A stretch of DNA of 58,652 nt from a virus. Its lineage: Duplodnaviria; Caudoviricetes. How positions within the stretch are numbered: position 1 is the first letter of the stretch; every line of letters starts with the position of its first letter. The notes below the pieces were generated by a model. That model saw only the letters and a program-made list of their open reading frames with translations, was not told where the DNA came from and made no database searches. The translations under genes were made by a program, and so were the position numbers. Positions 6 through 58,652 of the stretch are shown here, one piece after another. The stretch covers positions 1 through 58,652 of IMG/VR virus record IMGVR_UViG_3300025154_000110, one strand, 5' to 3'.

Positions 6-131
6 AAGAATCCCCTGCCAAGTCGCAGGGTGCGGAGCAACCGGCCCCTCCCTCCCCGGTTGCTCCGGTTTTAAATGATATGGTGCGCGAGGCCGCAAGG
101 TGGAAAGGCGCGGCACAGAAGGTTGCCGAGA
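6..131. repeat. Terminal direct repeat, copy 1 (126 bp; circular assembly overlap)
   Basis: AAGAATCCCCTGCC...AAGGTTGCCGAGA is identical to 58527-58652; bases 1-5 do not match the end copy. Confidence 0.95.
33..72 (+). terminator. Perfect 12-bp hairpin plus T-run inside the giant gene (terminator-like)
   Basis: CGGAGCAACCGG (33-44) / CCGGTTGCTCCG (56-67), 11-nt loop, followed by GTTTT. Confidence 0.45.
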
Positions 132-11429: not shown

Positions 11430-12124
11430 GTATGGACGAGTGGAATAATTACAACTGGCCGCTTATCTCGTTCGCCTTTGACGATGGTGGGGTGAATACC
11501 TATACCGCTGGGCTGCCGCTATTCCAGGGTTTTGGTGTGCCTGCTTGTGTAGGGATCATTGCAACGTACCCCGGCAACGAGGTTGCAGCAATGACCTGGG
11601 ACCAGCTTCGTGGATTACAGTCCGCGGGGTGGGAGATTTGCAGCCATAGTTACGACCACGATTTGGCAGGCTGGTATCCTCAAAGCGAAGAGTTTATGAC
11701 TACCCAAACAATCGCATCAATGGAAGCTCTGACAGCACAAGGACTGAAAGTAAGTAATTATATTTGTCCGGGTGCTACTCCATTCCCGTATGATGTAGTG
11801 CCGGATTCAGTAAAACATTATCACAGTGCCAGAATGACAAATGTAGGCGTAAATCAGATGCCCCTGGCGTGTCCAGCAGTTTGGCAGTTGAAGGTGCAGA
11901 ACCTTGATGGCAGGGACATTGCTACATGCAAGGCTATAATTGATACAGAGATGGGTTACGCCGCAAAAGGGTCACGACATTGGATTATTTTTTACGGACA
12001 TCAATTTAACGCTGCTGATGTAACATTTTTAACTGAGTTGCTGACATATATCCAGAGTAAAAACCTCGGCATATACACGATTCAGCAGGCGTTAGATATT
12101 GGTGGGGTTGTTCGGAATGACTGA
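11426..12124 (+). CDS. Polysaccharide deacetylase (NodB/CE4 family)
   Basis: FAFDDG, WEICSHSYDH, YICPG and IFYGH motifs. Confidence 0.85.
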   Translation: MSMDEWNNYNWPLISFAFDDGGVNTYTAGLPLFQGFGVPACVGIIATYPGNEVAAMTWDQLRGLQSAGWEICSHSYDHDLAGWYPQSEEFMTTQTIASMEALTAQGLKVSNYICPGATPFPYDVVPDSVKHYHSARMTNVGVNQMPLACPAVWQLKVQNLDGRDIATCKAIIDTEMGYAAKGSRHWIIFYGHQFNAADVTFLTELLTYIQSKNLGIYTIQQALDIGGVVRND

Positions 12125-13894: not shown

Positions 13895-14104
13895 ATGAAA
13901 CTATTTATTGCTTTGGGATTTGCTCTGATGCTGGCCGGCTGTGCAAACAGTAGCCGGAACTTGACGGTGAAAGTGTACGACGGCGGGACGCTGATGATCT
14001 GTCACTCTACCATTTCCCCGGAGGTCATGAAGTCGAACACGGACGAAAGGGCTACGAACACTCCTGACATCAAGCCGGAAGTTACCATCCCGCTGGTCCC
14101 GTGA
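13895..14104 (+). CDS. Small lipoprotein (possible o-spanin-like)
   Basis: Lipobox LAGC after hydrophobic leader; in the lysis cluster. Confidence 0.65.
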   Translation: MKLFIALGFALMLAGCANSSRNLTVKVYDGGTLMICHSTISPEVMKSNTDERATNTPDIKPEVTIPLVP

Positions 14105-14114
14105 GGCGGAACGG

Positions 14115-14303
14115 ATGTTTCTTAAATTAATTCTCCCAGCAATTTTTCTCAGCGCCGGATGGTTTTTTATCGGGGCATCGGCGGTAATGGCGTCGGTTGA
14201 CTTCACTGATTTCTCTTTCGTTACCGGCGAATCCGTTAGGGTTTGTGCTGTAGGAATAGCATTGCTTGGGCTGGCAGGTTTAAGTTTCTTCTATTTTAAT
14301 TGA
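14115..14303 (+). CDS. Small two-TM membrane protein
   Basis: Two hydrophobic segments. Confidence 0.5.
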   Translation: MFLKLILPAIFLSAGWFFIGASAVMASVDFTDFSFVTGESVRVCAVGIALLGLAGLSFFYFN

Positions 14304-14311
14304 GGGGTATT

Positions 14312-14512
14312 ATGAATATATTTGAGCAGGCATGGGATTTCTTCGACAAAAAGAAAGTCGCAATCGGCTCTCTCCTGATGATGATTGCGATAGTCATGCG
14401 AAATAATCTGCCGGAATATGCAGGGTGGGCAGATGTTATCGAGGAAATAGGTCTTCTGCTTGGTGGCATCGGATTCGCCCACAAAGCTGTGAAGGAGTAT
14501 CGCGGTGAGTGA
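14312..14512 (+). CDS. Holin-like two-TM protein
   Basis: KKKVAIGSLLMMIAIV...LLLGGIGFAHKAVK; GAGGGG SD. Confidence 0.55.
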   Translation: MNIFEQAWDFFDKKKVAIGSLLMMIAIVMRNNLPEYAGWADVIEEIGLLLGGIGFAHKAVKEYRGE

Positions 14513-14927
14513 GTACGACGGTCAGCTAGATACCGAGGTCTATTATCGGGACAACCTCAAGTATGTTACTGCACGGCGTCATGCGTACAAGACCAAGTTG
14601 CGGCCAGGGCGCGACATCTACGGCAAGTTCGTCTCACTCCTGACGTGCGGCGTTTTGATCATCGAGGAAGGCTGCCCCTGGAATGGTGCGAACGTGGTCC
14701 CGGACAGGCGGACAAACATGCGAGCCTCGCTCATCCACGATACTCTCGTTGGCATGATCCAGGCCGGTATCCTTGATCCAAAGTTTAAAACTGAAGTTGA
14801 CGAAGAATATTATGACACCTGCCGCCAGGACGGGATGTGGCTATTCCCGGCAATCACTGAATTTTGGGGTGTTCAGCTTCATACTTGGGAACGAACTCCA
14901 ATCGACGCAATAAAGGTGGCACCATGA
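14505..14927 (+). CDS. DUF1353-like protein
   Basis: W-N-G-A...RASLIHD..., D..Y...C..DGM pattern typical of lysis-cluster DUF1353-type genes. Confidence 0.55.
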   Translation: MSEYDGQLDTEVYYRDNLKYVTARRHAYKTKLRPGRDIYGKFVSLLTCGVLIIEEGCPWNGANVVPDRRTNMRASLIHDTLVGMIQAGILDPKFKTEVDEEYYDTCRQDGMWLFPAITEFWGVQLHTWERTPIDAIKVAP

Positions 14928-15115
14928 AGAAAAACAGCAAGATATATGTTAGCAACACCGGCCTGGACTGGCACAAGCGATATTTCTCTCACTGGCTTGA
15001 CGGACGAGCAATCTGTTTCACTGGTGGCTGCACTTCGTGGTCTGCGGACGGAACTGCTTCATGGGAATTCTGGAAAGATAAACAAGGCAGAATCAAAACG
15101 ATACTAAACAAGTAA
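14924..15115 (+). CDS. Hypothetical protein
   Basis: W..RYFSH..DG...CF.GG.TSWS motif; coupled to the upstream stop. Confidence 0.55.
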   Translation: MKKNSKIYVSNTGLDWHKRYFSHWLDGRAICFTGGCTSWSADGTASWEFWKDKQGRIKTILNK

Positions 15116-15153
15116 GCCTGTGAGCCCATAGGGCCGGGGCAAAGGATGGAGCA

Positions 15154-15471
15154 ATGGAAGCTGGCGAAGCGGCAAGCTATGGGAAACTGGGGGTGCTTGT
15201 GTTTACAGCGTTCTCTGCAGTATCGGCCTTTGTCTGGAAGGCTCATCGGCACGGGGAAAAGATTGAAGATTTGGAACGAGCCGTTTTCCCGGATGAACCA
15301 GGGCGCAAGCTATTAACTCTTGATTGGCATGATCGGATCCAGGCCGAATGTGAGCGGCAGAGGGCAAAAGACATGGAGATTTTGTCAGCTCATATTGTTG
15401 AACAGCTCCGCGATAAACTGGATGAGATCAAGAATGAATTCTGGGAGCGGAGAAGGGAGCCACGGCAATGA
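15154..15471 (+). CDS. Membrane-anchored coiled-coil protein (holin/i-spanin-like)
   Basis: N-terminal TM followed by charged helix. Confidence 0.55.
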   Translation: MEAGEAASYGKLGVLVFTAFSAVSAFVWKAHRHGEKIEDLERAVFPDEPGRKLLTLDWHDRIQAECERQRAKDMEILSAHIVEQLRDKLDEIKNEFWERRREPRQ

Positions 15472-15587
15472 GCAGGCTCACAAAGCAATACCTGGCGATG
15501 GCAGGCGCGATCCTCGGCCCGGTGCTGACGTTCATTTATTTCTGGTTCTGCGGGTATGAACCGGAGTGCTGGTGGTGTTTGCTATGA
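15468..15587 (+). CDS. 39-aa membrane peptide (not in ORF track)
   Basis: MSRLTKQYLAMAGAILGPVLTFIYFWFCGYEPECWWCLL; ATGA overlaps at both ends. Confidence 0.5.
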   Translation: MSRLTKQYLAMAGAILGPVLTFIYFWFCGYEPECWWCLL

Positions 15588-15814
15588 GCGATAATCTGCC
15601 CTGCATCTGTGGGGGAAACTGGAGAAAGATTGTCAATGAAGCAGAAGCATTGCTCGACAAAACGTTCTGCTGCGATGGCAGAAAATATATATTCTACGGG
15701 GTAGTGCACGGCTCCGACGATTATTATTACGGAATGGTTGACTGCGAGAACGGTAAATGCAGGCTTCTGTCATGTGTCGGCTCAATTGAACAGCATGGGT
15801 TTAGCCTAATATGA
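15584..15814 (+). CDS. Hypothetical Cys-containing protein
   Basis: FYGVVHGSDDYYYGM...LLSCVGSIEQHGF. Confidence 0.6.
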   Translation: MSDNLPCICGGNWRKIVNEAEALLDKTFCCDGRKYIFYGVVHGSDDYYYGMVDCENGKCRLLSCVGSIEQHGFSLI

Positions 15815-16143
15815 GCGGCCAGTGGCGGGAGCAGGTTGTAAAGCGGGCCACTAGAAGCAACGGATGGGCCAAGGTAAGGGCTGAACACCTTGAAAAGAAT
15901 CCTGCCTGCGCATGCTGCGGGAAAACGGTGAAATATCTCAAAACGTTTCGGATGCAGGTACATCACAAGATGCCATTCCACATCGTGCCGGAATTGGAGC
16001 TTGACTCGAAAAACCTCATCACCCTCTGCGGAGATCCATGTTGCCACTTCGACAAGGGGCATCCGCGGAACTGGAAATCGCACAACAAGAACGTTGTCCG
16101 GGACTGCGCGGTATGGCTGAGGAAATACAGGAGCAAGCCATGA
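15811..16143 (+). CDS. HNH endonuclease
   Basis: CACCG...QVHH...NLITLC...CHFDKGH. Confidence 0.85.
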   Translation: MSGQWREQVVKRATRSNGWAKVRAEHLEKNPACACCGKTVKYLKTFRMQVHHKMPFHIVPELELDSKNLITLCGDPCCHFDKGHPRNWKSHNKNVVRDCAVWLRKYRSKP

Positions 16144-16727
16144 ACTCCGAAGCGTTCCAACTCGCATTTGCTAGGACCATGAAGCACGAAGGAGGTTTCA
16201 GCCACGACCCTGCCGACCCAGGGGGCATGACGTATCAGGGCATATCAAGGGTGCATTTCCCTGAATGGCAGGGCTGGGAGATAGTTGACCGGCTCCTGCA
16301 AGGATCTTCTACCCCGGCCTTTTCTAACCAGCCTGAACTGGCAGAGATGGTGCGGAAGTTTTATGAACTTGAGTTCTGGACACGCATACAGGGTGACTTC
16401 ATCTCGTCGTTGTCGAAAGACTCTGTTGAGATTGCGGCGGAACTGTTTGACACGGCAGTAAACCTCGGACGGCGCAGGGCGATAGAGATACTCCAATCAG
16501 CGCTGAACCTGCTAAACCGCAACGGACTAGCATACCCTGATATCTGCGAAGACGGCAGGATGGGGTATCAAACGGCGGCGGCACTGGCACAGTATGTAGA
16601 GCGTAGAGGGTTTGAGGTTGGGGCACTGGTCAAACTGATGAACCATCTGCAGGGCTGGCACTACATAAACCTGATGCGGAAATATCCTGATAAAGAGCGG
16701 TTTGTAGGGTGGTTTGCGAGGACATGA
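16140..16727 (+). CDS. Endolysin, glycoside hydrolase family 108 with PG-binding C-terminus
   Basis: HEGGFSHDPADPGGMTYQGIS, FDTAVNLG, RFVGWFAR; start reassigned to MNSEAF. Confidence 0.9.
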   Translation: MNSEAFQLAFARTMKHEGGFSHDPADPGGMTYQGISRVHFPEWQGWEIVDRLLQGSSTPAFSNQPELAEMVRKFYELEFWTRIQGDFISSLSKDSVEIAAELFDTAVNLGRRRAIEILQSALNLLNRNGLAYPDICEDGRMGYQTAAALAQYVERRGFEVGALVKLMNHLQGWHYINLMRKYPDKERFVGWFART

Positions 16728-44519: not shown

Positions 44520-45251
44520 GTGCAACGAAAAGCGATAGCGATGATCTGTCACAGCGCGATTATGGCGCTCCGGTCCGTCCGGGGAATGGATGTCAAGGCG
44601 TGGGATAAAGAGCCGGCCGACAAGCAGGAAAGGTATGTCGCCGGGGTCAACGAGGAGGCGGAAGGCAATCTCCCAACCCTTGAGGAAAGCCACGACTCAT
44701 GGCGGGCCAGGCTGCCGGAAGAACACCCGGAAAAGGGCATCACCTGGGACCAGCTTGACGACCCGGAAAAGGCGGAGCGGGCCATCTTCTCCTACGTTGT
44801 CGCAGCCTGCAACAAGGTCCAGGGCGCCGTGACCATCGTCAAAGACACCGAAAACAACGAGATTCCGACCGAAGCGGTCAAGTACATCGGCCACCGCGCT
44901 TCTTACCGGGACGGCGTGTATGGCACGAATATCACCTGGCAGAAGGGCGAGACGATTCTTGTCCAGGCCAGCAAGGCGCACCTGATGTTTCGGCATAAGG
45001 ATGTCTGGGTGATGGGCGACAAGGCCGACGCTAGGGCACCGGACGTTGACCCGCTCGCCACCGACAAAGAACAGCGTGCCCAAGAAGACAGGATCCAGGA
45101 CGCCCGCGACCAGCTTACCAGGATGGACAAGGACGCCATGGTTAAGTTTGCCACCCATTATTTCCCCGGGCAGAAGTTCCACCCAAACCTCGGGCCGGAG
45201 AAAATGCGGGCGCAGCTTGACAAGATGATCGACCAGTTTGGGCTCATCTGA
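44520..45251 (+). CDS. Virion-associated protein with N-terminal RyR-like domain
   Basis: IAMICH...AW...EESHDSW...HP...WDQL pattern; C-terminal VKYIG.R...D..YGT...W..GET..V. Confidence 0.6.
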   Translation: MQRKAIAMICHSAIMALRSVRGMDVKAWDKEPADKQERYVAGVNEEAEGNLPTLEESHDSWRARLPEEHPEKGITWDQLDDPEKAERAIFSYVVAACNKVQGAVTIVKDTENNEIPTEAVKYIGHRASYRDGVYGTNITWQKGETILVQASKAHLMFRHKDVWVMGDKADARAPDVDPLATDKEQRAQEDRIQDARDQLTRMDKDAMVKFATHYFPGQKFHPNLGPEKMRAQLDKMIDQFGLI

Positions 45252-46225
45252 TGGCAAGCGCAACCCTGCTTGCACTGTTCAGGACCCTGGCGACGGATAC
45301 CGTTGCGCCGTATTTCACTTCGGACGTGCAGGGCTACGCCTGGCTGGCCGAGGCCGAGAAAGAGGCGGCGATACGAAAGCGGCTCCTGCGCGACAGCCGG
45401 ACCATTGAACTTTCAACTCCGGCGGCGCCAACTCTGACTGCGACCACCGGGACCATGCCGGCGACGACCTACTCTTACAAGATTGTCGCCTACAACGATC
45501 TGGGCGTAACTCTTCCGTCAACGGCCGCAACCATAGCAGCCGGGGCAAGCTCGGGCGTGGTCATTACCTGGACCGCTGTCACCGGCGCCATTGGCTACAA
45601 GGTATATGGCCGGACATCGGCCGGGCCGGAAAAGCTGATGGCCACCGTGGACGAGGGAACACTGACCTGGACGGATACCGGGAGCGTGACGCCGGCCGGG
45701 GCATTGCCGACGGCGAACACAACCGCGGATGTTGTCAAGATCGATGTCACCAGTGGCCGGGCACACTATCCCTACCATGCGTCCATATTTGATGTCGAGT
45801 ACGCCTATCTGACGGACGGCACGACTCGGTATGCGCTGGATATCAAGTCTCAGGGCTTGGAGACTCAGGACAACTCGATCTGGCGCGAAGAGACCGGGAC
45901 GCCTACCGCAGTCTTCTTCAACAAGAACCACACCCTGCAGTTCAACAAGATCCCGGACGCGGACCTGACCCTCTACATGGAGGTGTACCGGAAACCGTTC
46001 TACGCGATCAGCAGTTCGGTTGAGCCGGAAATCAGCGCCTTTCACCACGAGCGGCTGATCGACTGGGTACTCTATCGCCATTACCTGAACCGCGATGCGG
46101 ACGTTTACAACCCGGACAAGGCGAAGGGCCACAACCAGGCATTCGCCAACTACTTCGGCGGCGAGGTTGACGCGGACCTTCGCATGGACACCAGAGTTCC
46201 GCAGCGGAACAAGATATGTCTATGA
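45251..46225 (+). CDS. Head-tail adaptor-like protein with inserted FN3/Ig-like domain
   Basis: L..LFR....D.VAPY...EAEKEAAIR..LL, PEI..FHH..L.DW..YR.Y...DAD; insert YSYKIVA...ITW..V.GA.GYKVYGR. Confidence 0.65.
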   Translation: MASATLLALFRTLATDTVAPYFTSDVQGYAWLAEAEKEAAIRKRLLRDSRTIELSTPAAPTLTATTGTMPATTYSYKIVAYNDLGVTLPSTAATIAAGASSGVVITWTAVTGAIGYKVYGRTSAGPEKLMATVDEGTLTWTDTGSVTPAGALPTANTTADVVKIDVTSGRAHYPYHASIFDVEYAYLTDGTTRYALDIKSQGLETQDNSIWREETGTPTAVFFNKNHTLQFNKIPDADLTLYMEVYRKPFYAISSSVEPEISAFHHERLIDWVLYRHYLNRDADVYNPDKAKGHNQAFANYFGGEVDADLRMDTRVPQRNKICL

Positions 46226-47151
46226 CGAAACCAGTCACCATCTACGCGGGCGCTGCTGGGGGGGATAACGCCCACCGCGAAGATGATATCGGGTTCAACT
46301 CTGACACCGGAGTAACGGCGCTGGCCAAGGGCGTCAATGTCGTGATCGAGAGTTCCGGCAAGGGCCGGCCGCGCTGTCGCCGGGCCAATGGATATTCTGA
46401 GCTGTTCGCCGGGGCCTATCATTCCGGGTTCCGCGATACCGGGGACGCCTTTGTGGCCAAGGGGACGTTGCTCTACCGGTTCAAGCGCGAAAGGACGCTG
46501 CAACTCATAGTCTCCGGGTTGACCGGTGCGCGACTCTGCTACGCGCAACACGGTGAGCGGACATTCTACGGGAATGGGACGCAGGGCGGGGTTATCGAAG
46601 GCGGGGTAGCTTCATCCTGGCCGACAGATTCTTACCTTGGCATGGATACCGTCCGGGCCTATTCAGGCGCACCGGTTCCAGGGAAAATGTGCATCCACGG
46701 GGGCCGGATCAACATTGTGACGCCATCAGACCCGAATACCATATATGGCTCAGAATACGGCATGTTCAACACCTTCTTCAAGGCGGAGAACCACCAGAAT
46801 TTTGAATCGAGGGTAATCATGATGGTTGAGGTGGAGACCGGCATGTTTGTCTCTACCGAACACCACACATGGTTCATGCAGGGACAGGGCGCTTTGCGGG
46901 ACATGAAGCTGTTCAACAAGGATGTCGGGCCGGCCTTTGAATGGTCGGAATGGCACCAGAAAGTAGCTGTTGCGGACCTTGGCCTGCCAGGCGGCGGATA
47001 CTGCCGGCTCTGGCGTGGAAAGACCGGGGCAATGGTCGGCTTTGCTGACGGAAGTATTGCGAATTTGACAGACAAGATGATCGACACGAATTGCGGGGGC
47101 CTTGGGGCGTCGTGCTACATGAAACCCCATTTCATTCATTCAGTAGGATAG
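46222..47151 (+). CDS. Tail structural protein (nozzle/stabilisation-like)
   Basis: Position after the adaptor; G.DN...A..VNV.I...G...R..G pattern. Confidence 0.55.
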   Translation: MTKPVTIYAGAAGGDNAHREDDIGFNSDTGVTALAKGVNVVIESSGKGRPRCRRANGYSELFAGAYHSGFRDTGDAFVAKGTLLYRFKRERTLQLIVSGLTGARLCYAQHGERTFYGNGTQGGVIEGGVASSWPTDSYLGMDTVRAYSGAPVPGKMCIHGGRINIVTPSDPNTIYGSEYGMFNTFFKAENHQNFESRVIMMVEVETGMFVSTEHHTWFMQGQGALRDMKLFNKDVGPAFEWSEWHQKVAVADLGLPGGGYCRLWRGKTGAMVGFADGSIANLTDKMIDTNCGGLGASCYMKPHFIHSVG

Positions 47152-47162
47152 GAGAAAAGGAT

Positions 47163-47900
47163 ATGTGGAATTTAAGCACTGGCGCCAAGCTAGCCCTCCT
47201 GGGCCTTGAGTCTGTTAAGAAGCTCCAGAAAACAGCGGTAACTCTCGCTTTTCAAGACGGAACCGGGACAGGCGGCCGAGACAGGATTTTCGATTCTGCG
47301 AACGGGCTTGCCGGGTTTGCCGACTATGTTCATGACTATGTCGGAGTCGGCGGGAGCACCAGCAATAACTTTTGCCCGAAGATACTGGCGGCGGCTGCCG
47401 GTTATATCGAGGTTCCGGCCGGAACATTCTCGACCGAGGCTGAAGGGGACCAGGTTATCCTCAGCGTTCACCGCGGCGGATCGTTCCAGGAAGTATTCAG
47501 AAACTCGGTCCTGCACCTGTTCGCCGTATCGCGGCCAGCTGACGCTGACACCACGGAAGGGGCAAGCCCGCTGGTCATCATCACGAAAGATGGCGGGGCC
47601 TTTGTCTCCGGCTCACCGACGAACGGGATCAACTTCACCGTCGATGTGGACGGGAACGTGGTCATTACCACCGACCCAGCCACCGATGCAGATATGGTCC
47701 TGAAGGGCCTGGGTCTGGTTGCAGGAGACGCCTTGTTCGGTCGGCTCTATGCCAATACGGTTGTCACCGGGAACAGCACAAGCGCCGTCCGGGCAGACGG
47801 CAGGGTTGGCCTGTCCGGGGTCGAGATAAACATGAGCGCCGGAGTAGGTATCACCGTCGGCGTTTATGCAACCGTTACCGATGTCGAAATGTACGTTTAA
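47163..47900 (+). CDS. Tail-associated structural protein, paralog 1 (no signal peptide)
   Basis: MWNLSTGAK start with GGAG/AAGG SD; aligns end to end with the mature part of 47911-48705. Confidence 0.75.
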   Translation: MWNLSTGAKLALLGLESVKKLQKTAVTLAFQDGTGTGGRDRIFDSANGLAGFADYVHDYVGVGGSTSNNFCPKILAAAAGYIEVPAGTFSTEAEGDQVILSVHRGGSFQEVFRNSVLHLFAVSRPADADTTEGASPLVIITKDGGAFVSGSPTNGINFTVDVDGNVVITTDPATDADMVLKGLGLVAGDALFGRLYANTVVTGNSTSAVRADGRVGLSGVEINMSAGVGITVGVYATVTDVEMYV

Positions 47901-47910
47901 GGGGTGTGCC

Positions 47911-48705
47911 ATGAAAGTATTTGAGAAACTCGGGATTATTCTCGCTCTGTTGGTCTTGACATGCGGGACAGCAAGCGCAACCGTCATCCTTTCCAAGCAG
48001 ACGGCGGAAGACCTTGCCGGAGGCCGGGCAGTCGTCAATGTTGTTATCCAGGCTGCGACCATTGCTTATGTTGACGGCGGTGCCGGGAACGACCAGATCC
48101 ACGACTCAGCGAGCGGGCTGGCCGTGTTCCATATTGGGGACAAGGTAACGGTCGATGGATCAACCAGTAATGACGGAACTTACGAAATTCTTGACGTTTC
48201 TGCGACAGATCTTGATGTCGGTACCGGGCTCTTAACAACCGAAGCGGAAGGTGACGCGACAGCCCTTGCCTCTGCCCGGGGAATGAGCCTGTCTGACATC
48301 TTCCGGCGCGGGGTGATCAGGATCTATTCCGGGGCACAACCTGCTTCACCGGAAACAGTTGAGTCCGGGACCCTGCTTTTGGAGATCAGCGAGAGTTCCG
48401 GCGCATTTACCGGCGGGGCAGATGCCAACGGCCTATTGTTCGATGACGTGACCTGCGGGGCCGCTTCCTGTTCTGTCGCCAAGATGGTCAGCCAGGTATG
48501 GAGCGATGCCGGTCTTGATACCGGAACAGCCGCGTGGGGGAGACTGTATGACAACGCCTTCGACACTGGAGCCGATGCTGGCGAGGCGTACCGGAGGATT
48601 GACTTTTCGGTAGGAGTTGCTGGAGACTTGGTGATGTCCCCGTCTGTTACCACCGGTGTCACCAAAACCATTGACGAATTCACCTTGACAGTGCCATTGC
48701 AGTAA
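47911..48705 (+). CDS. Tail-associated structural protein, paralog 2 (with signal peptide)
   Basis: AAGGGGTG SD; MKVFEKLGIILALLVLTCGTASA leader; IRIYSGAQPAS, TGTAAWGRLY. Confidence 0.75.
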   Translation: MKVFEKLGIILALLVLTCGTASATVILSKQTAEDLAGGRAVVNVVIQAATIAYVDGGAGNDQIHDSASGLAVFHIGDKVTVDGSTSNDGTYEILDVSATDLDVGTGLLTTEAEGDATALASARGMSLSDIFRRGVIRIYSGAQPASPETVESGTLLLEISESSGAFTGGADANGLLFDDVTCGAASCSVAKMVSQVWSDAGLDTGTAAWGRLYDNAFDTGADAGEAYRRIDFSVGVAGDLVMSPSVTTGVTKTIDEFTLTVPLQ

Positions 48706-48714
48706 TCAAGTACC

Positions 48715-49881
48715 ATGGCAGACTATATTCCTCAGTACCCGCCGGCACATAGTACAACCTATGTAAAGGCGACGAGTGTATACAATGCGACGTATTATTC
48801 TGCTCATTTTGGAACAGATCCTGGATTGCCACTTACAGGTACTTGGCAGTATAATGAATGGAAATCTGCAAATTTTCTGGCAACGTATGAACAAAAATTC
48901 AATGTCGATCTGGGGTCTGCAAAGACTATAACGAGGATACGGCTCGACAATGCTCATGAATCAGGAGCCAATACTAATCGTGGCATTAAGAATTTTTCTG
49001 TTTACGGGTCTAACTCATCTACAGCCTTTGATAACACTACATACTCAGACACAACCGATCTAACATTACTTGATTCTTTTACAGCGGCCGAGCACGCCGC
49101 AGCAGACACGGCCGATCCGCAATATTTCGTATTGGGCACTACCGGATCGTTTCGGTATTACATCCTTCGTATTGCAGACGCATATATTACCTATGCAAAT
49201 GCTGGCTTCAGGCATATCGAGTTTGAGGCGACTGTTCCGATAGTTGGCGATCTTGATATTAATTCGGTAGGCATCGGTGGAATAGCGAGCGGATTCGGAG
49301 GCGTCACCCTTTCCCCGGTTGTCGCGGAAGGTGATGGAGGCGCGACAGGTGGAATAACTCTAGGGGGCCTATCTGCATCAGGAGAAGGAGAGGTAGGGTC
49401 GCTCCTCGAAGTCACCGGCCAGTTGTTCCAGTTGCAGGGCGGAATTTCTCTCAACACCGAGTCTGTTGCAGAACTGTCCGGGAAGCTCTTTGAACTCAAG
49501 GGCGGGTTCCAGATCGACGAGATCGAGCTCACCGGCCAACTGTTCGAGCTGAAGGGCGGCTTTTCTATTGAGCGGTCAATCGAGGCCGAACTTTCCGGGA
49601 AACTGTTCGAGTTGCAGGGCGGGATTGATGTAGTTGTCGATGCACTGGTTGAACTTGGCGGCCAGTTGTTTGAATTGCAGGGCGGGATGGATGCCGAAAC
49701 ATCCATACCGTTCGAGCTCGGCGGCCAACTCTTTGAACTGAAAGGCACCATGACCGCGGTTGCCGAAGAGCCGGAAGTTGAATTGTCCGGCCAGCTCTTT
49801 GAATTGAAAGGCGGGTTCACCTTCGCCGGGGCCGGAGAATGTTCCGGAGTGCTCTCCTATTCCCCGGGCGCCTCGTGTTAA
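48715..49881 (+). CDS. Tail protein: discoidin/F5-8C-like carbohydrate-binding N-domain plus seven repeats
   Basis: FNVDLGSAKTITRIRL...IKNF.VYGSN...FRYYILRI; EL(S/T/G)G(Q/K)LFEL(K/Q)GG repeats. Confidence 0.7.
   Translation: MADYIPQYPPAHSTTYVKATSVYNATYYSAHFGTDPGLPLTGTWQYNEWKSANFLATYEQKFNVDLGSAKTITRIRLDNAHESGANTNRGIKNFSVYGSNSSTAFDNTTYSDTTDLTLLDSFTAAEHAAADTADPQYFVLGTTGSFRYYILRIADAYITYANAGFRHIEFEATVPIVGDLDINSVGIGGIASGFGGVTLSPVVAEGDGGATGGITLGGLSASGEGEVGSLLEVTGQLFQLQGGISLNTESVAELSGKLFELKGGFQIDEIELTGQLFELKGGFSIERSIEAELSGKLFELQGGIDVVVDALVELGGQLFELQGGMDAETSIPFELGGQLFELKGTMTAVAEEPEVELSGQLFELKGGFTFAGAGECSGVLSYSPGASC
49405..49820. repeat. Seven imperfect ~54-66 bp coding repeats
   Basis: GGCCA(A/G)(C/T)TGTT(C/T)GA(A/G)(C/T)TG(A/C)AGGGCGG-like units. 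Confidence 0.75.
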
Positions 49882-54170: not shown

Positions 54171-55907
54171 ATGGCCCCACAGAAAAAGTACATCAAGGAC
54201 AAGGACGGGAAAATGGTTGAAGTGCCTGATGGCGCGGCACCTGCGGTTAATCCTAATTCGGTGGCTGGCGCCGCGGTGAACCTCAAGGAAAGCGCTGTCC
54301 AGGGCGTAAAGGATTTTGCCTCCGTCGTGTCATCTCCAGCCGAGACGGCCAAGAGCCTTGGATCAAGGATAGTTGGCGATGTCAAGTCCATTCCGGCCGG
54401 CGCGGTAAATGCGGCGAAGAATTGGGCGAAGGAGGGTATCGCCATTGGCGACAAAGTTGGCGGCGTGTTGCCCTGGGCCGGGAAGACAGCAGAGGCGGTT
54501 GAGGCGGCGAAGGGCGCGACTGAGGCCGGCGGCATTCCAGCCGGTATCGGCGTCGGGCTGCGGAAAACCCCGGGCCTGGTTTTTGAGGCCGCGAAAGATA
54601 CGGTTGGCGGGATCGTCAATGAAGATGTGCGGGCGGCGAATAGAGCAGTCGGCCAGGGAATCATTGATGTTGCATCAACTGCGGCTACCGGGAAGGTCAA
54701 ACCGAAGGCAGAGAGCCCGCCGGCAGGGGCCGTAGCAGCAGAACCGCCGGCCGCTGAGAAAGAAGCAGCACAACCGGCGACCTCTACGCAACCATTACCG
54801 TTTCACGGCACCCCAACGGCCACGTCGGCCGAGAGTGACCCGATGGACGCGGACGGCAGCGCCGGGCAAGGAGGACCTCCACCGGCAACCGCACAGATTG
54901 GAAATTACCAGCAGAACGCCCAGGGCCAGCCGGAAACCAGGCGGTACAGGGACCCAAACACCGGAGACTATACCTATTCGCTCCCAGGCGGGAACATCAC
55001 CGTCAAGGGCGGGGCGGAGAAGATCACCCGCGAGCCCGGCGAGCAGAACATGGGCGGGTACGGTGCCCGCCGGCCGGCCAAGACTGCAGGTTCGGGTGTT
55101 GCTTCTTCGACTGGCGGCTATGGCGCTTATGAGGACCAGAAGGCACGGCTGAAAGAATATCACGACAAGCTGTTCCAGCCGGTAGACGAGGCGAACAGGT
55201 ACAAACCGACCGTCCAGACCAAGTTCCGGAATAAGGAAGACGAGGTTGCGGCCGAAAACGCCAGGCACATTGAAGAGCGGGCCGCGAAGAACGCCGCGCA
55301 AGTTGCGAAGGACAATGCCATCGCCGCGGCGCAGAATGAGGAAGTTTCCCGTAATCTCGCCATCCAGGCGCCGAGGATTGGCGTCATGCAGCAGGAACTT
55401 GTTGATCGGCAGGCGCAGACCGGAATTGATCAGCAGCGGGCAGACATTGAGGCCGGCCGGGCCGGGGTTGACCAGCAGAAGGTGCAGTCTGACATTGCCG
55501 AATCTCAGCTTACGGCGCAGGAAAAAGAAATGATGAATGCGGCCCGGGCCAAGGTGCAGGCAGCGACGACGCAGGAAGAGAAGGACGCCGCCGTACAGGA
55601 GCTTGCCGCATTGAGCGGGAACTTCCCTAAAACGAAAGATGTCAATCCCAGCTGGGCTTTTGTCCCGCCGGAGACGAACGCGGCCGGCGAGGTTGTCAAG
55701 GAAGGGTTCTACTATGACAAGAACAGCCCGACGAATCCGGGGAGAGAGAAGCGCGGCGGCGCTGATGCGGTAGCGGCAGCGGAGCAGGAACTTGGCGGCA
55801 TGGGCGAAGACGTGGCGCAGCAGGCGGCGGCTATCAGGGCGCAGGTGAAGGCAGGAAAGCTGAAAAAGGCTGAAGCACTCAAACGACTCAAAGAATTGGG
55901 GCTGTAA
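54171..55907 (+). CDS. Ala/Gly/Gln-rich internal virion (ejection) protein
   Basis: Low-complexity helical protein before the giant gene; TAATG coupling. Confidence 0.65.
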   Translation: MAPQKKYIKDKDGKMVEVPDGAAPAVNPNSVAGAAVNLKESAVQGVKDFASVVSSPAETAKSLGSRIVGDVKSIPAGAVNAAKNWAKEGIAIGDKVGGVLPWAGKTAEAVEAAKGATEAGGIPAGIGVGLRKTPGLVFEAAKDTVGGIVNEDVRAANRAVGQGIIDVASTAATGKVKPKAESPPAGAVAAEPPAAEKEAAQPATSTQPLPFHGTPTATSAESDPMDADGSAGQGGPPPATAQIGNYQQNAQGQPETRRYRDPNTGDYTYSLPGGNITVKGGAEKITREPGEQNMGGYGARRPAKTAGSGVASSTGGYGAYEDQKARLKEYHDKLFQPVDEANRYKPTVQTKFRNKEDEVAAENARHIEERAAKNAAQVAKDNAIAAAQNEEVSRNLAIQAPRIGVMQQELVDRQAQTGIDQQRADIEAGRAGVDQQKVQSDIAESQLTAQEKEMMNAARAKVQAATTQEEKDAAVQELAALSGNFPKTKDVNPSWAFVPPETNAAGEVVKEGFYYDKNSPTNPGREKRGGADAVAAAEQELGGMGEDVAQQAAAIRAQVKAGKLKKAEALKRLKELGL

Positions 55908-58652
55908 TGGGAATCGCTGAAGACTTACTGGCGGACGTACCGGATGAAGAGGGTGCCGTTGCTCCTTCCATAGCTGAAAGGCTGTTGGCCGATATCCCGG
56001 ATGATGATGTCCCAGAAGGCGCCGTTCCTGAGCGTGGCTTCATGGGAGACGTTGCATCCCGCGCTGCACGCGGCATGGTTGGCCTTGCCGAGACCACGGC
56101 TCAGGCGGCCGATGTCTTTACCGGCGGGACGGAGATAACCAAGACTGCAAAGGATTTCTGGCGCGACCTCCCAGAGAAGGCTGATATCCTGAAGCCTGAT
56201 GTATCGGAAGCGACCGGCCAGGAGGGTTTCGTCAAGCGCGGCGCCATGGGCGCGGTTGAGTCGGCCCCGGTATCGGCGGCGATTATCCCAGCGGCGATGG
56301 CCGGCGCGGCGGCCGGCAGTGTCGTCCCGGGCGTCGGGACAACGATTGGCGGATTTGTCGGCGGCACGCTTGGATTGATCGGACTCTTCGGCGCCGGCAC
56401 CTATGGCAAACAGAAAGACGTTGCCATGGAGGAATTGAAAGCGGCCAGGCCGGATCTTGATGACAAGGCCCGCGAGGACATCGCCCACGAAAACGCCATG
56501 ACCCACGCCTACGCCGAAACACTTGGCGAGGGAGCCGGGGACCTGGCGGCATACCTGATTTTCTCACGCCTTCCCGGTGGAACTGCAGCATACCGCGGCG
56601 GGAAGGAAATACTGAAGAACCTCGTCAACCCGAATTTCGTCAAGACCATCGGTAAGGGGTTCCTCAAGGACGTGCCTTTCGAGGTCGGTTCAGAGGTTGG
56701 GACCTCGTTCTTCCAGGCGGAAGCCGACAAGAAAGCTGGCATCCAGGGCATGAGCACCGGCCAGCAGATGTTGGAATCGATAATCCCGGCCATATTCCTG
56801 TCCGGTGGCATGGGAGTTGTGGTTGGTGGATATTCAGCCTATCAGCGGAAAAAGTCATACGATGGACTGAACCAAGGCACACCGGAAGAACGGGCAATGG
56901 CGGTGAACGCCGTCGCGTCAACCTTGTACGAAAGGGTAGGTGATGAGGCCATCGCAAATGACTGGCGCGACAAGGCCATGTCCTATGTCGTGTCCGGACA
57001 AAAGATCCCGCTCGACCAGGACCTCATCAACTTTGTTGCAGCCAGAGAGGCAGAGAACGGCGTCGATGGCAAGCCGGTCAAAACTGCAGAACCAGCCGGC
57101 CCGGTAACGCGAGCCGTAAACAGAGTAACCCCAACCACGGAGCAAGCAAATGTTCGGAGTATTCGAGAACAAGAAGAAAAAGCAGGCAGAGCAGGCGGCC
57201 GCGGCGAAGAGCAAGGCGGAACTGGACCAGTTGGAACAGTCAGTCAAATCAACGCAGCAGCGGGCGGACAAGATGAAGGCGGACTTCGGGATCGAGGACG
57301 TGGAGAAGTTACCCCCGCCGGCAGCCGGGCCGAAGCCGGTCAAGAAGGGGCCGCCGGAAGGAGTGGCGGAGAGCTTGAAACGGCTGATCAAGGCCAGAAA
57401 CAAGGAAATGGAGCAGGCAAACAGGTAGACGAGTCCAAGCGCGGCCGGGACTGGGCGGACGGAAAATCTCAGTCCTTCGATGCGTCCCCATATTTCCAGG
57501 AGAATCTTGAGAGCCCGGAGACACGGGCGCTTGGCATGGAGCGCAAGGCGGCGGATAAGATCGCCCGGCTGAAGGAAAAGGGCCGGTACACCGATAAGGC
57601 CGGGAAGGTCACGGATAAGGCTTTGTTCTGGGAAGGTGCGCGGGCTAGGGCCAGGGAATTGGCGGCGGAGTCCAGGAAGAACAGCGTGTTCCAGGGCGCC
57701 GAGGACTTGCCGATTGAGCAGGGCCGGCCTGAACAGATTGACCCCGAGACCGGGGAGATCCTCCAGCAGGTTGCCGGCGACATCAACCGCAGCAAAGCGG
57801 ACCCGAAGACCACGGCCGAAGTGCAGCAAATTGTCGAACGGATCAATCAGGCCACGCCAGAGCAGATTACCGCATACCAGGGGAGCATCGGTGAACGGTT
57901 CGAGGCTCGGCCTGACCTGAAGCCGTTTGAGAAGATTATCAGGGATGCGCTGGAGAAGAGGGCGGCGACGACTGCGCCCAGGGCGGCAGAGTCTATCGAA
58001 AATCGGGAGTCGGCGGCGGCCGGCCAGGAGGTGAACACTACCCCCTCGGAGCCGATGAAGGAGAGCGGAAATTACAAGAAGGCCCATGTCTCGGTTGACG
58101 GGCTCGACATTTCCATCGAAAATCCTATCGGCTCATTCCGTTCCGGGAAAGACAAAGGGGGCCGGGAGTGGCGACAGGAGATCAAGGCCGATTACGGTTA
58201 TGTCAAAGGCACCGTCGGCCATGACAAAGACCATGTTGACATCTTCATCAAACCCGGATACCAGGGCGGCGCGAAGACCGTTCATGTCGTCAACCAAGTG
58301 AACAAGGACGGCTCTTTCGATGAGCACAAGGCGGTTCTCGGGGCGGCTTCTCCTGAAGAGGCGATGGAGATTTACAATTCCAACTATGAAGAAGGCTGGA
58401 CCGGGGGCAAGAATGTTATCGAGATGCCGGCCGGCCGGTTCAAGCGGTGGGCGAAGTCCGGGAGGGCGAAGAAAGGTGAATTGACGGCGGCGCAGGCCGG
58501 GAAACAGCCGGCCACGGCAGCGCCCAAAGAATCCCCTGCCAAGTCGCAGGGTGCGGAGCAACCGGCCCCTCCCTCCCCGGTTGCTCCGGTTTTAAATGAT
58601 ATGGTGCGCGAGGCCGCAAGGTGGAAAGGCGCGGCACAGAAGGTTGCCGAGA
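55907..58652 (+). CDS. N-terminal part of the giant polyvalent virion protein (missing from the ORF track because it runs off the end)
   Basis: MGIAEDLLADVPD...; Gly/Ala-rich hydrophobic segments; InPase-like domain GNYKKAHV...SIENP...DYGYVKGT.G.DKDHVD...DEHK; ATG 58601 equals ATG 80, 898 codons from 55907. Confidence 0.85.
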   Translation, partial: MGIAEDLLADVPDEEGAVAPSIAERLLADIPDDDVPEGAVPERGFMGDVASRAARGMVGLAETTAQAADVFTGGTEITKTAKDFWRDLPEKADILKPDVSEATGQEGFVKRGAMGAVESAPVSAAIIPAAMAGAAAGSVVPGVGTTIGGFVGGTLGLIGLFGAGTYGKQKDVAMEELKAARPDLDDKAREDIAHENAMTHAYAETLGEGAGDLAAYLIFSRLPGGTAAYRGGKEILKNLVNPNFVKTIGKGFLKDVPFEVGSEVGTSFFQAEADKKAGIQGMSTGQQMLESIIPAIFLSGGMGVVVGGYSAYQRKKSYDGLNQGTPEERAMAVNAVASTLYERVGDEAIANDWRDKAMSYVVSGQKIPLDQDLINFVAAREAENGVDGKPVKTAEPAGPVTRAVNRVTPTTEQANVRSIREQEEKAGRAGGRGEEQGGTGPVGTVSQINAAAGGQDEGGLRDRGRGEVTPAGSRAEAGQEGAAGRSGGELETADQGQKQGNGAGKQVDESKRGRDWADGKSQSFDASPYFQENLESPETRALGMERKAADKIARLKEKGRYTDKAGKVTDKALFWEGARARARELAAESRKNSVFQGAEDLPIEQGRPEQIDPETGEILQQVAGDINRSKADPKTTAEVQQIVERINQATPEQITAYQGSIGERFEARPDLKPFEKIIRDALEKRAATTAPRAAESIENRESAAAGQEVNTTPSEPMKESGNYKKAHVSVDGLDISIENPIGSFRSGKDKGGREWRQEIKADYGYVKGTVGHDKDHVDIFIKPGYQGGAKTVHVVNQVNKDGSFDEHKAVLGAASPEEAMEIYNSNYEEGWTGGKNVIEMPAGRFKRWAKSGRAKKGELTAAQAGKQPATAAPKESPAKSQGAEQPAPPSPVAPVLNDMVREAARWKGAAQKVAE
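57150..57428 (+). CDS. Putative nested +1-frame gene (92 aa)
   Basis: GGAG 7 nt before ATG; protein-like helical sequence while the host frame becomes G/R/E low-complexity over exactly this span. Confidence 0.6.
   Translation: MFGVFENKKKKQAEQAAAAKSKAELDQLEQSVKSTQQRADKMKADFGIEDVEKLPPPAAGPKPVKKGPPEGVAESLKRLIKARNKEMEQANR
58527..58652. repeat. Terminal direct repeat, copy 2
   Basis: Identical to 6-131. Confidence 0.95.

What the first reader, a model, noticed from the sequence alone, without database searches (positions are those of the whole stretch)
47163..48705. Tandem tail-protein paralogs, one with an added Sec signal peptide
Seen: 47163-47900 and 47911-48705 align along their length (AVTLAFQDG/AATIAYVDG, RDRIFDSANGLA/NDQIHDSASGLA, GSTSN, TEAEGD, RGGSFQEVFR/RGMSLSDIFR, GRLYAN/GRLYDN). 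The second has a 23-aa n-h-c leader ending ASA. Its predicted mature start (TVILS) lines up with Met1 of the first (MWNLS), and it has an extra Cys pair (TCGAASC). Established: tailed-phage virions normally assemble in the cytoplasm, so their structural proteins lack signal peptides. Inference: one copy of a virion protein is exported, possibly for disulfide folding and addition to particles at lysis, or as a periplasmic/surface decoy.
Basis: partly seen in the sequence, partly recalled or inferred. Interest (0 to 1): 0.85.

Follow-up and report, generated by a model that had tools for sequence, protein, structure and literature searches.

The report
Phage fibre bead with export signal
Two neighbouring genes of an uncultured short-tailed phage encode related "bead" subunits of a chain-like tail fibre, and one of them begins with a conserved bacterial secretion signal, so part of the virus's host-recognition gear may mature outside the cytoplasm where tailed phages are normally built.

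Summary
ORF A (47163-47900) and ORF B (47911-48705) are paralogs (36% identity, E 3e-30). B starts with a 23-residue n-h-c leader ending ASA.

Both belong to the bead subunit family of podophage "chain-like fibres" (A1002 gp40 / KPP25 gp07, PDB 44NX). In A1002, bead dimers dock on a "rope" protein. A rope-like gene with seven ~21-residue repeats follows B.

The leader is not an annotation artefact:
- It uses the same ribosome-binding site and ATG as leaderless orthologs, and is a clean in-frame 66-69 nt insertion or deletion.
- Nine distinct leaders keep Ala at -1 (9 of 9) and Ala or Val at -3 (9 of 9), while -2 varies.
- Leaderless relatives begin with Met exactly at the predicted cleavage site.

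The leader is rare in the family. It is patchy among B orthologs, never found on A-type copies, and appears once on an unrelated branch (P0023). Mature B is as conserved as its leaderless orthologs.

Export and cleavage were not tested by a trained predictor or by experiment; I put them at about 0.8. The fate of exported B is open: late loading onto the fibre (about 0.33) or an exported receptor mask (about 0.27).

This scan has noted export signals on phage fibres before on other DNA. This case is an unusually clean with/without comparison.

The parts
45251..46225 (+). Head-to-tail adaptor gene (context)
   Evidence: Pfam PF24175 SU10_adaptor, E 1.1e-11, 46 bits against a cutoff of 27.
46216..47151 (+). 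Nozzle-base-like gene (context)
   Evidence: PHROG 8040 'head closure Hc3', E 1.9e-12. KPP25 gp09 carries the same label and sits directly before that phage's two fibre bead genes. In A1002 the 398-residue protein at this position is the nozzle base gp42 (PMC13730344 section 9).
47163..47900 (+). ORF A: leaderless, more divergent bead paralog (245 aa)
   Evidence: 36% identical to B, E 3e-30. PHROG 3758, E 2.8e-3. AF2 pLDDT 88.1 with the same order of elements as B. It keeps 24 of 38 family-conserved columns. The 10 closest relatives are 245-247 aa and all start M(A)WN.STG without a leader.
47899..47904 (+). Shine-Dalgarno AAGGGG of B, overlapping A's stop codon
   Evidence: Read. There are 6 nt to the ATG at 47911. 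The same TAAGGGGTG context precedes the ATG of leaderless orthologs L086 and L088.
47911..48705 (+). ORF B: bead preprotein (264 aa)
   Evidence: phmmer against PDB 44NX chain B, E 9.8e-11. Profile E 1.7e-29. PHROG 3758, E 6.7e-12. AF2 pLDDT 89.5, pTM 0.78.
47911..47979 (+). 23-codon Sec-type leader (n: MKVFEK; h: LGIILALLVL; c: TCGTASA)
   Evidence: AF2 gives helix 2-17, then pLDDT below 50 at residues 18-22. It is a clean in-frame indel relative to leaderless orthologs.
47980..48702 (+). Predicted mature B (T24 to Q264)
   Evidence: The start of the mature part coincides with residue 2 of leaderless orthologs.
48031..48279 (+). Inserted small beta-barrel domain of B (about residues 41-123)
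   Evidence: It is absent from the 147-aa KPP25/A1002 bead; the profile match skips positions 18-101. Only weak Foldseek matches to the E1 FCCH and F1-ATPase N-terminal barrels (E 0.1-1). The same domain is repeated 10-15 times in giant proteins.
48286..48696 (+). Bead core domain of B (residues 126-262)
   Evidence: Aligns to 44NX_B residues 18-145 and to KPP25 gp07 (hhalign probability 99.6%). Foldseek hit to 9rkv_A: E 8.4e-5, target-normalised TM 0.64.
48454..48471 (+). Cys182...Cys187 pair in a 4-residue insertion
   Evidence: Present only in B, P0003 and P0004.
48715..49881 (+). Rope-like protein (388 aa): lectin-like head, Gly-rich linker, repeats, C-terminal C...C
   Evidence: Sub-threshold F5/8 type C matches (E 1.2e-5, 26.3 bits against a cutoff of 27.8). 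A gene of the same plan follows B in L083, L084, L085, L086, L088 and L089.
49417..49839 (+). Seven ~18-22-residue repeats with core G(Q/K)LF(E/Q)L(K/Q)G: candidate docking sites for bead dimers
   Evidence: Regex hits at residues 235, 256, 274, 295, 316, 337 and 359. In A1002, 11 dimers dock on the rope by beta-augmentation (PMC13730344 section 11).

Best explanation
A and B are two bead subunits of a chain-like tail fibre. In this fibre type, bead dimers sit side by side on a repeat-bearing rope protein, here the next gene (48715-49881). B is the more canonical bead.

B is made as a preprotein with a Sec-type signal peptide. The inferred route is:
1. B crosses the inner membrane.
2. Signal peptidase I cuts after ASA23.
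3. The product begins T-V-I-L-S. This is equivalent to a leaderless bead after removal of its start Met (A/S-V-x-L-S).
4. Mature B therefore folds in the periplasm.

My committed reading of what follows is that the periplasmic bead pool is loaded onto free rope sites only when the envelope is breached at lysis. The fibre would then be completed outside the cytoplasm.

Shown: paralogy, family membership, gene order, the real start codon, and the conservation, rarity and patchiness of the leader. Inferred: export and cleavage (about 0.8). More weakly inferred: late loading (about 0.4 given export).
For: Family:
- B against 44NX_B, E 9.8e-11; profile E 1.7e-29.
- The A1002 paper shows this 147-aa protein as fibre I dimers on the rope, traced from residue 2 (PMC13730344 section 11).
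- Gene order is nozzle-base-like, bead, bead, rope-like.

Leader:
- Same SD and ATG as leaderless orthologs, and a clean 66-69 nt indel.
- In 9 distinct leaders, -1 is Ala in 9 of 9 and -3 is Ala (8) or Val (1). Position -2 is S, G, D or E. A Gly, Pro or Asp sits at -4 to -6 in 9 of 9.
- Leaderless B orthologs have ORFs that open only 8-10 codons upstream of their Met, and that Met sits at B's position 23.
- P0023, on another branch, carries an unrelated leader ending VSA at the same junction. None of its 119 listed relatives has one.
- Six other proteins of this phage have similar short leaders, one with a lipobox. This fits a Gram-negative Sec system.

Still a working bead:
- Leader-bearing B forms keep 31-34 of 38 columns conserved in single-copy relatives. 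Leaderless B forms keep 29-35 and A keeps 24.
- N-half and C-half trees disagree, so leader-bearing and leaderless B genes exchange halves.
- Ropes with seven repeats follow both kinds of B.
Against: - No trained signal-peptide predictor and no experiment. My hydrophobicity rule is crude.
- No mechanism is known for adding parts to a tailed phage after export.
- The rope and A have no leader, so A could fill all seven sites in the cytoplasm.
- 76 of 80 related IMG/VR loci manage with one bead gene.
- The leader is dispensable in close orthologs: at least 2 changes of state within the B clade.
- The Cys pair that would fit periplasmic folding is in only 3 of 9 leader-bearing forms.
- B alone carries the solved-structure match. 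A alone gives no PDB hit by sequence or fold.
Confidence: 0.33

Rival explanations
1. Exported non-virion copy. B is exported and cleaved as above but never joins the particle. As a soluble periplasmic copy of a receptor-binding bead, it would mask the receptor or its periplasmic precursors (for example pilin or glycan intermediates). That would give superinfection exclusion or protect progeny from sticking to debris. A alone would build the fibre.
For: A leaderless paralog lies next door, and 76 of 80 related loci have a single bead gene. The patchy presence of the leader suggests an accessory role. Exported phage proteins that block receptors are known (T5 Llp, Cor; recalled, not looked up). 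The A1002 authors propose that both bead types recognise receptors (PMC13730344 discussion, read). A KPP25-like phage, Cootes, was tested on pilA mutant and pilin-glycosylation backgrounds alongside pilus-dependent phages in a preprint (passages of 10.64898/2026.03.17.712343). This is only a lead for this distant relative.
Against: Mature B shows no relaxation. It keeps 32 of 38 family-conserved columns against 24 for A. It swaps halves with leaderless orthologs that presumably are virion beads. Periplasmic proteins do not normally reach surface-exposed receptor epitopes. No hit in PADLOC.
Confidence: 0.27
2. The leader does not drive export of the functional pool. B folds, dimerises and docks on the rope in the cytoplasm faster than Sec can take it. 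The leader is then tolerated, removed by another protease, or serves as a transient membrane tether or assembly aid.
For: Tailed-phage assembly is cytoplasmic as far as is known. Leader-bearing and leaderless B forms are interchangeable in evolution. The A1002 authors suggest that about 30 N-terminal residues of the second bead, gp41, may be removed proteolytically (PMC13730344 section 11).
Against: Conservation of Ala at -1 and Ala or Val at -3, with a free -2, is the signature of signal peptidase I, whose active site faces the periplasm (established knowledge). A positive n-region followed by 10-13 hydrophobic residues predicts translocation of the C-terminal part. The KPP25 gp08 N-terminus is not hydrophobic, so the gp41 case is not a parallel. 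In the solved homolog the N-terminus is ordered from residue 2. A retained 23-residue hydrophobic extension would therefore be awkward.
Confidence: 0.15
3. Annotation or assembly artefact. The true start lies downstream, or the leader is a chance upstream extension.
For: One relative, P0211, does carry a miscalled upstream extension.
Against: No ATG, GTG or SD-backed start lies between 47911 and the mature part. The leader is conserved in 8 related sequences at 58-86% identity to B, from independent contigs. In leader-bearing genes position 23 is Ala, not Met.
Confidence: 0.02

Closest known systems
Fibre I bead gp40 of Pseudomonas podophage A1002 (= KPP25 gp07, 147 aa; PDB 44NX chain B)
   Same: The core domain is homologous (E 9.8e-11 for B alone, 1.7e-29 for the profile). 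Both have the conserved N-terminal M-A-x-(K/R)-x-S segment. Both phages have two bead genes in tandem after a nozzle-base-like gene, followed by a rope gene. In the virion, dimers dock on rope repeats (paper sections 9, 11).
   Different: The window beads carry an extra ~85-residue beta-barrel between the N-terminal segment and the core. A and B are close paralogs (36%) of the gp40 type. KPP25 gp08 (fibre II) is not detectably related (hhalign probability 0.4%). The rope here is a separate 388-aa protein with a lectin-like head and 7 repeats, rather than the 620-aa nozzle-rope with 11 sites. B has a Sec-type leader; gp40 has none.
Fibre bead proteins gp80 of Ralstonia phage GP4 (PDB 8JOU) and gp11 of Vibrio phage VP1
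   Same: The A1002 paper describes them as the same monomer fold and as dimers forming chain-like fibres. GP4 has a separately encoded rope, as this window appears to have.
   Different: Not compared here by sequence or fold. This rests on PMC13730344 section 11 only. No leader is reported.
Structural protein chain A of Agrobacterium myophage 7-7-1 tail fibres (PDB 9RKV, 141 aa)
   Same: Best solved fold match to B's core (Foldseek E 8.4e-5, target-normalised TM 0.64; profile E 1.5e-4). The paper describes 36 homodimeric 'garland' proteins around the fibres (passages of PMC12796354).
   Different: It comes from a myophage baseplate, not a podophage rope. That chain A is the garland protein gp014 is my inference from size and entry title. 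No leader.
Exported phage superinfection-exclusion proteins (T5 Llp, phi80/N15 Cor) and Sec-exported endolysins (recalled, not looked up)
   Same: Phage-encoded proteins that use host signal peptides and act in the envelope.
   Different: They are lipoproteins or enzymes unrelated to virion parts. B is a close paralog and ortholog of a virion fibre subunit, has no lipobox (Thr at -1; Cys absent in 7 of 9 leaders) and no PADLOC hit.
Earlier findings of this scan: export signals on phage tail fibres on other DNA (e1-371983, e1-3444272, e1-3288081 and others)
   Same: Sec-type leaders on host-recognition parts of uncultured phages. Nearest in print according to those notes is Matrishin 2023 (PMC10367356). 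In the passages I read, that paper mentions signal peptides on capsid, spanin and unknown genes, and the term 'tail fiber' does not occur in its text.
   Different: In those cases whole fibre sets carry leaders. Here only one of two paralogs does, close orthologs differ only by the leader, and a homolog's place in the virion is solved.

Membership tests
Chain-like-fibre bead subunit (A1002 gp40 / KPP25 gp07; PHROG 3758) | Sequence homology to the solved bead | tested here: met
   B: phmmer E 9.8e-11 to 44NX_B, profile E 1.7e-29, PHROG 3758 E 6.7e-12. A: only through B (E 3e-30) and PHROG 3758 at E 2.8e-3. A alone finds no PDB relative (best E 0.45).
Chain-like-fibre bead subunit (A1002 gp40 / KPP25 gp07; PHROG 3758) | Bead fold | tested here: inconclusive
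   The B model (pLDDT 89.5) matches 9rkv_A at E 8.4e-5 and target-normalised TM 0.64. The A model (pLDDT 88.1) has no Foldseek PDB hit at E <= 1e-3. 44NX is not in the fold library (entries up to April 2026). The VIA libraries were unavailable.
Chain-like-fibre bead subunit (A1002 gp40 / KPP25 gp07; PHROG 3758) | Gene neighbourhood: after the nozzle-base gene, before a rope gene with repeated docking sites | tested here: met
   PHROG 8040 gene at 46216-47151, as in KPP25. The downstream 388-aa protein has 7 repeats. Its plan is conserved in 6 related loci.
Chain-like-fibre bead subunit (A1002 gp40 / KPP25 gp07; PHROG 3758) | Homodimer docked on the rope by beta-augmentation; present in virions | not testable with these tools
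   Needs cryo-EM, pull-downs or virion mass spectrometry.
Sec / signal peptidase I signal peptide | Positive n-region, 10-15-residue hydrophobic h-region, helix breaker, small uncharged residues at -3 and -1 | tested here: met
   B has K2 and K6, h-region LGIILALLVL, G19, and A21 and A23. Across 9 distinct leaders, -1 is Ala in 9 of 9 and -3 is Ala or Val in 9 of 9.
Sec / signal peptidase I signal peptide | Positive call by a trained predictor (SignalP 6, DeepSig) | not testable with these tools
Sec / signal peptidase I signal peptide | Demonstrated translocation and cleavage | not testable with these tools
   Needs reporter fusions, cell fractionation or N-terminal sequencing.
Lipoprotein (signal peptidase II) signal | Lipobox [LVI][ASTVI][GAS]C | tested here: not met
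   B has V-L-T-C with Thr at -1. The Cys is absent from 7 of 9 leaders. The lipobox pattern is recalled.
Tat signal | Twin-arginine motif in the n-region | tested here: not met
   No RR in any of the 9 leaders.
Known anti-phage or superinfection-exclusion families | Match to a PADLOC model | tested here: not met
   0 families for A and for B at E <= 0.01.

The most novel reading that the evidence does not exclude
A tailed phage routes one of its own tail-fibre subunits through the host Sec pathway. Signal peptidase creates the subunit's native N-terminus in the periplasm. The fibre is finished outside the cytoplasm when particles and the periplasmic bead pool meet at lysis. On this reading, gain or loss of 23 codons switches a virion part between cytoplasmic and extracytoplasmic assembly.
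Probability: 0.3. Interest if true: 0.85.

Novelty: new variant of a known kind. Interest (0 to 1): 0.62.

Why it matters
Textbook assembly of tailed phages is wholly cytoplasmic. A virion subunit with a selected, cleavable export signal would imply one of two things. Either there is an unrecognised late, extracytoplasmic step in virion completion, or phages turn copies of their own receptor-binding parts into envelope-located masks.

This locus is a favourable test case for four reasons:
- A homolog's place in the virion is solved.
- The leader is the only systematic difference between close orthologs.
- A leaderless paralog sits beside it as an internal control.
- The predicted cleavage product is easy to recognise by mass spectrometry.

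It also extends the newly described chain-like-fibre architecture to a large uncultured group. The family has 4421 50%-identity cluster representatives at E <= 1e-3.

Tried and rejected
- Complex prediction. Two copies of mature B (residues 24-264) with rope residues 228-340 gave no verdict (score 0.00, controls not run). It counts neither for nor against binding.
The contexts of P0006, P0009, P0011, P0013 and P0023 therefore could not be seen. Only 3 leaderless B orthologs (L086, L088, L089) are verified at DNA level.
- Fold search libraries pdb_via_wide and pdb_via were not installed.
- The genome-contig scan with A2 found no relative, so there is no host from prophages. The host is inferred as Gram-negative only from short leaders, a lipobox protein and a lysis-like cluster, and from source labels 'Geobacter sp.' and 'Deltaproteobacteria' on relatives.
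- Viral-contig scans with P0023 and A2 added nothing new.
- KPP25 gp08 (fibre II) is not related to A or B, and its N-terminus is not hydrophobic. The cleavage suggested for A1002 gp41 is therefore no precedent.
- Alternative or dual starts inside the leader: no in-frame ATG or GTG and no SD-backed TTG. Rejected.
- Lipoprotein and Tat readings rejected (see the membership test).
- Pfam, NCBIfam and PADLOC gave nothing for A or B.
- A single origin of the leader with strict vertical descent is rejected. The quick tree needs 4 changes overall, and well-supported branches force at least 2 in each half. These are quick IQ-TREE searches with SH-aLRT support only.
- Literature. Four full-text searches listed no paper on an exported paralog of a tail-fibre subunit. 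I read listings and abstract starts only. Supplements were closed and may hold virion proteomics that bear on this.
Full report
**What is there.** The window is a whole IMG/VR virus record, about 95% complete. It has terminase, portal and capsid genes (PF13252), an SU10-type adaptor and a nozzle-base-like gene, all on the + strand. ORF A (47163-47900, 245 aa) and ORF B (47911-48705, 264 aa) follow the nozzle-base-like gene.

**What the proteins are.**
- Pfam has nothing for either protein. PHROG 3758 'virion structural protein' matches B (E 6.7e-12) and A (E 2.8e-3).
- Among 50,697 phage records, only 6 records of KPP25-like Pseudomonas podophages match, over B residues 127-262.
- B alone matches PDB 44NX chain B (147 aa) at E 9.8e-11. 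A profile of 33 relatives matches it at E 1.7e-29, and matches 9RKV chain A at E 1.5e-4.
- The AF2 model of B (pLDDT 89.5) has one significant solved match, 9rkv_A of the phage 7-7-1 tail fibres (E 8.4e-5).
- The paper that reports 44NX is PMC13730344; I read sections 6, 9, 11 and 12. It shows that this 147-residue protein (gp40, fibre I) forms dimers. [quoted passage not shown] This makes six chain-like fibres. gp40 is traced from residue 2.
- KPP25 has the same gene order: nozzle base, gp08, gp07, then a 620-aa rope.
- In the window, the gene after B (48715-49881) has a weak discoidin-like head, a Gly-rich linker and seven 18-22-residue repeats with core G(Q/K)LF(E/Q)L(K/Q)G. Genes of the same plan follow B in six related metagenome loci. 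Their repeat motifs differ from phage to phage.
- I read A and B as bead subunits and this gene as their rope.
- Compared with gp40, both window beads carry an inserted ~85-residue beta-barrel. Both are of the gp40 type; KPP25 gp08 is unrelated.
- A is the more divergent copy. A alone finds no solved relative by sequence or fold.

**Is the leader real?**
- B's first 23 residues have K2 and K6, a 10-residue hydrophobic core, G19 and A-S-A. AF2 makes helix 2-17, followed by a low-confidence hinge.
- At DNA level, the A stop codon, the AAGGGG ribosome-binding site and the ATG are shared with leaderless orthologs. The window reads TAAGGGGTGTGCC-ATG plus 22 leader codons. L086 and L088 read TAAGGGGTGAAGCT-ATG, followed directly by the mature part. 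The leader is therefore a clean in-frame indel, read from the same start.
- Nine distinct leader-bearing sequences exist: B, P0003, P0004, P0005, P0007, P0008, P0010, the L084 copy and P0023. Position -1 is Ala in 9 of 9. Position -3 is Ala in 8 and Val in 1. Position -2 is S, G, D or E. A Gly, Pro or Asp lies at -4 to -6 in all nine.
- Leaderless relatives begin with Met exactly where B has A23. Their next residue is small (A, S or T), as is the residue after the predicted cut. Cleavage would therefore reproduce the N-terminus that leaderless beads have after Met removal. That N-terminus is ordered in the solved homolog.
- There is no lipobox and no twin-arginine motif.
- No trained predictor was available, so export and cleavage remain an inference, which I put at about 0.8.

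**How common is it?**
- By a crude rule, 7 of the 37 other proteins found with B have a leader.
- None of the bead-sized proteins among the 149 other best cluster representatives has one. The one rule-positive protein, P0185, is a 589-aa lipoprotein-like protein that contains only the middle domain.
- None of the 119 listed relatives of P0023 has one.
- Among 80 IMG/VR loci, 1 has a leader (L071). 76 show one full-length bead gene within the flanks, and 4 show two in tandem.
- Of 8 JGI metagenome loci, 4 carry a leader-bearing B, 3 carry a leaderless B and 1 is cut. All 7 usable loci have an A-type gene just upstream. The tandem pair is therefore older than the leader.
- The 10 closest A relatives are 245-247 aa and have no leader.

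**History.** A quick maximum-likelihood tree of 45 rows gives an A clade (5 rows) and a B clade (21 rows: 8 with a leader, 13 without), both strongly supported. It needs at least 4 changes of leader state, one of them for P0023 on a distant branch. Trees of the N-terminal and C-terminal halves disagree. B's N-half pairs with P0005, and its C-half pairs with P0003 and P0004. Each half still needs at least 2 changes on well-supported branches. So B genes are recombination mosaics, and the leader has been gained, lost or transferred repeatedly. P0023's leader has an unrelated sequence and looks like a second invention at the same junction. P0023 is a single sequence from one contig, and I could not inspect that contig.

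**What the exported protein does.** I defined conserved columns from 15 single-copy-type relatives only. Leader-bearing B forms keep 31-34 of 38 such columns, leaderless B forms keep 29-35, and A keeps 24. Ropes with seven repeats follow both kinds of B. The mature part of B thus looks like a fully constrained bead that is interchangeable with leaderless orthologs. For that reason I commit, weakly, to late loading of a periplasmic bead pool onto the rope at lysis (0.33 overall).

Against this reading:
- The rope and A have no leader.
- Most relatives need only one bead gene.
- No such assembly step is known.
- The Cys pair is present in only 3 of 9 leader-bearing forms.

The main rival (0.27) is an exported copy that never joins the virion and masks the receptor. 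A third reading (0.15) is that the functional pool stays in the cytoplasm. An annotation artefact is nearly excluded (0.02).

**Relation to earlier work.** Four full-text searches listed no paper on an exported paralog of a fibre subunit (listings only). This scan has repeatedly noted export signals on phage fibres on other DNA. Later checks there put the bold reading at 9-30 in 100. Those notes are unchecked leads, not support. The paper they name as nearest in print (PMC10367356) mentions signal peptides on capsid, spanin and unknown genes, and the term 'tail fiber' does not occur in its text. My crude rule agrees for 9514, 10026, 12124, 12905, 13895 and 39647.

**Verdict.** This is a real, conserved, Sec-type leader on the canonical one of two tandem chain-like-fibre bead paralogs. 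It is a new variant of a newly described kind of tail fibre. Its consequence for assembly is untested.

Noticed in passing
48715-49881; L083, L084, L085, L086, L088, L089 downstream of the bead genes: The rope-like protein has seven near-identical repeats within each phage, but the repeat motif differs between related phages (GQLFELKGGF, GTLPRLSGGF, GDLGFxMESGI, GTIPYTITGGF). This suggests concerted evolution of the docking sites, perhaps together with the beads.
   Followed up: partly
9514, 10026, 12124, 12905, 13895, 39647 (starts of + strand ORFs): Six further proteins of this phage have signal-peptide-like N-termini by a crude hydrophobicity rule. 13895 has a lipobox (LAGC) and a weak Cor-like PHROG match. 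39647 lies between the portal and capsid genes. 11426-12124 is a polysaccharide deacetylase.
   Followed up: partly
80-9274 and 55907-58651 (open at the 3' end): Both large ORFs match the same 2900-position PHROG 30335: the later ORF at profile positions 724-905, the earlier ORF at 1825-1901. They may be two parts of one giant internal virion protein cut by the ends of the record.
   Followed up: no
P0105, P0175, P0180, P0186, P0185: The inserted beta-barrel of the beads occurs as 10-15 tandem copies in proteins of about 2000-3000 aa, and three times in a 589-aa protein with a lipoprotein-type N-terminus.
   Followed up: no
47911-48705 and orthologs: The B gene is a recombination mosaic. Its N-terminal half groups with P0005 and its C-terminal half with P0003 and P0004.
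   Followed up: yes
13895-16727: A likely lysis cluster: a lipobox protein, two small membrane proteins (14115, 14300), a protein with an N-terminal membrane helix (15154) and an endolysin (16038-16727, PHROG 315). This fits a Gram-negative host.
   Followed up: no
L046, L047, L050: Other phages have independent tandem duplications of the bead gene, with no leader on either copy.
   Followed up: no
L001 7421-7936 (KPP25 gp08): The A1002 paper suggests that the first ~30 residues of fibre II may be cleaved off. The KPP25 ortholog's N-terminus is not hydrophobic, so that processing, if real, is not Sec-type.
   Followed up: partly
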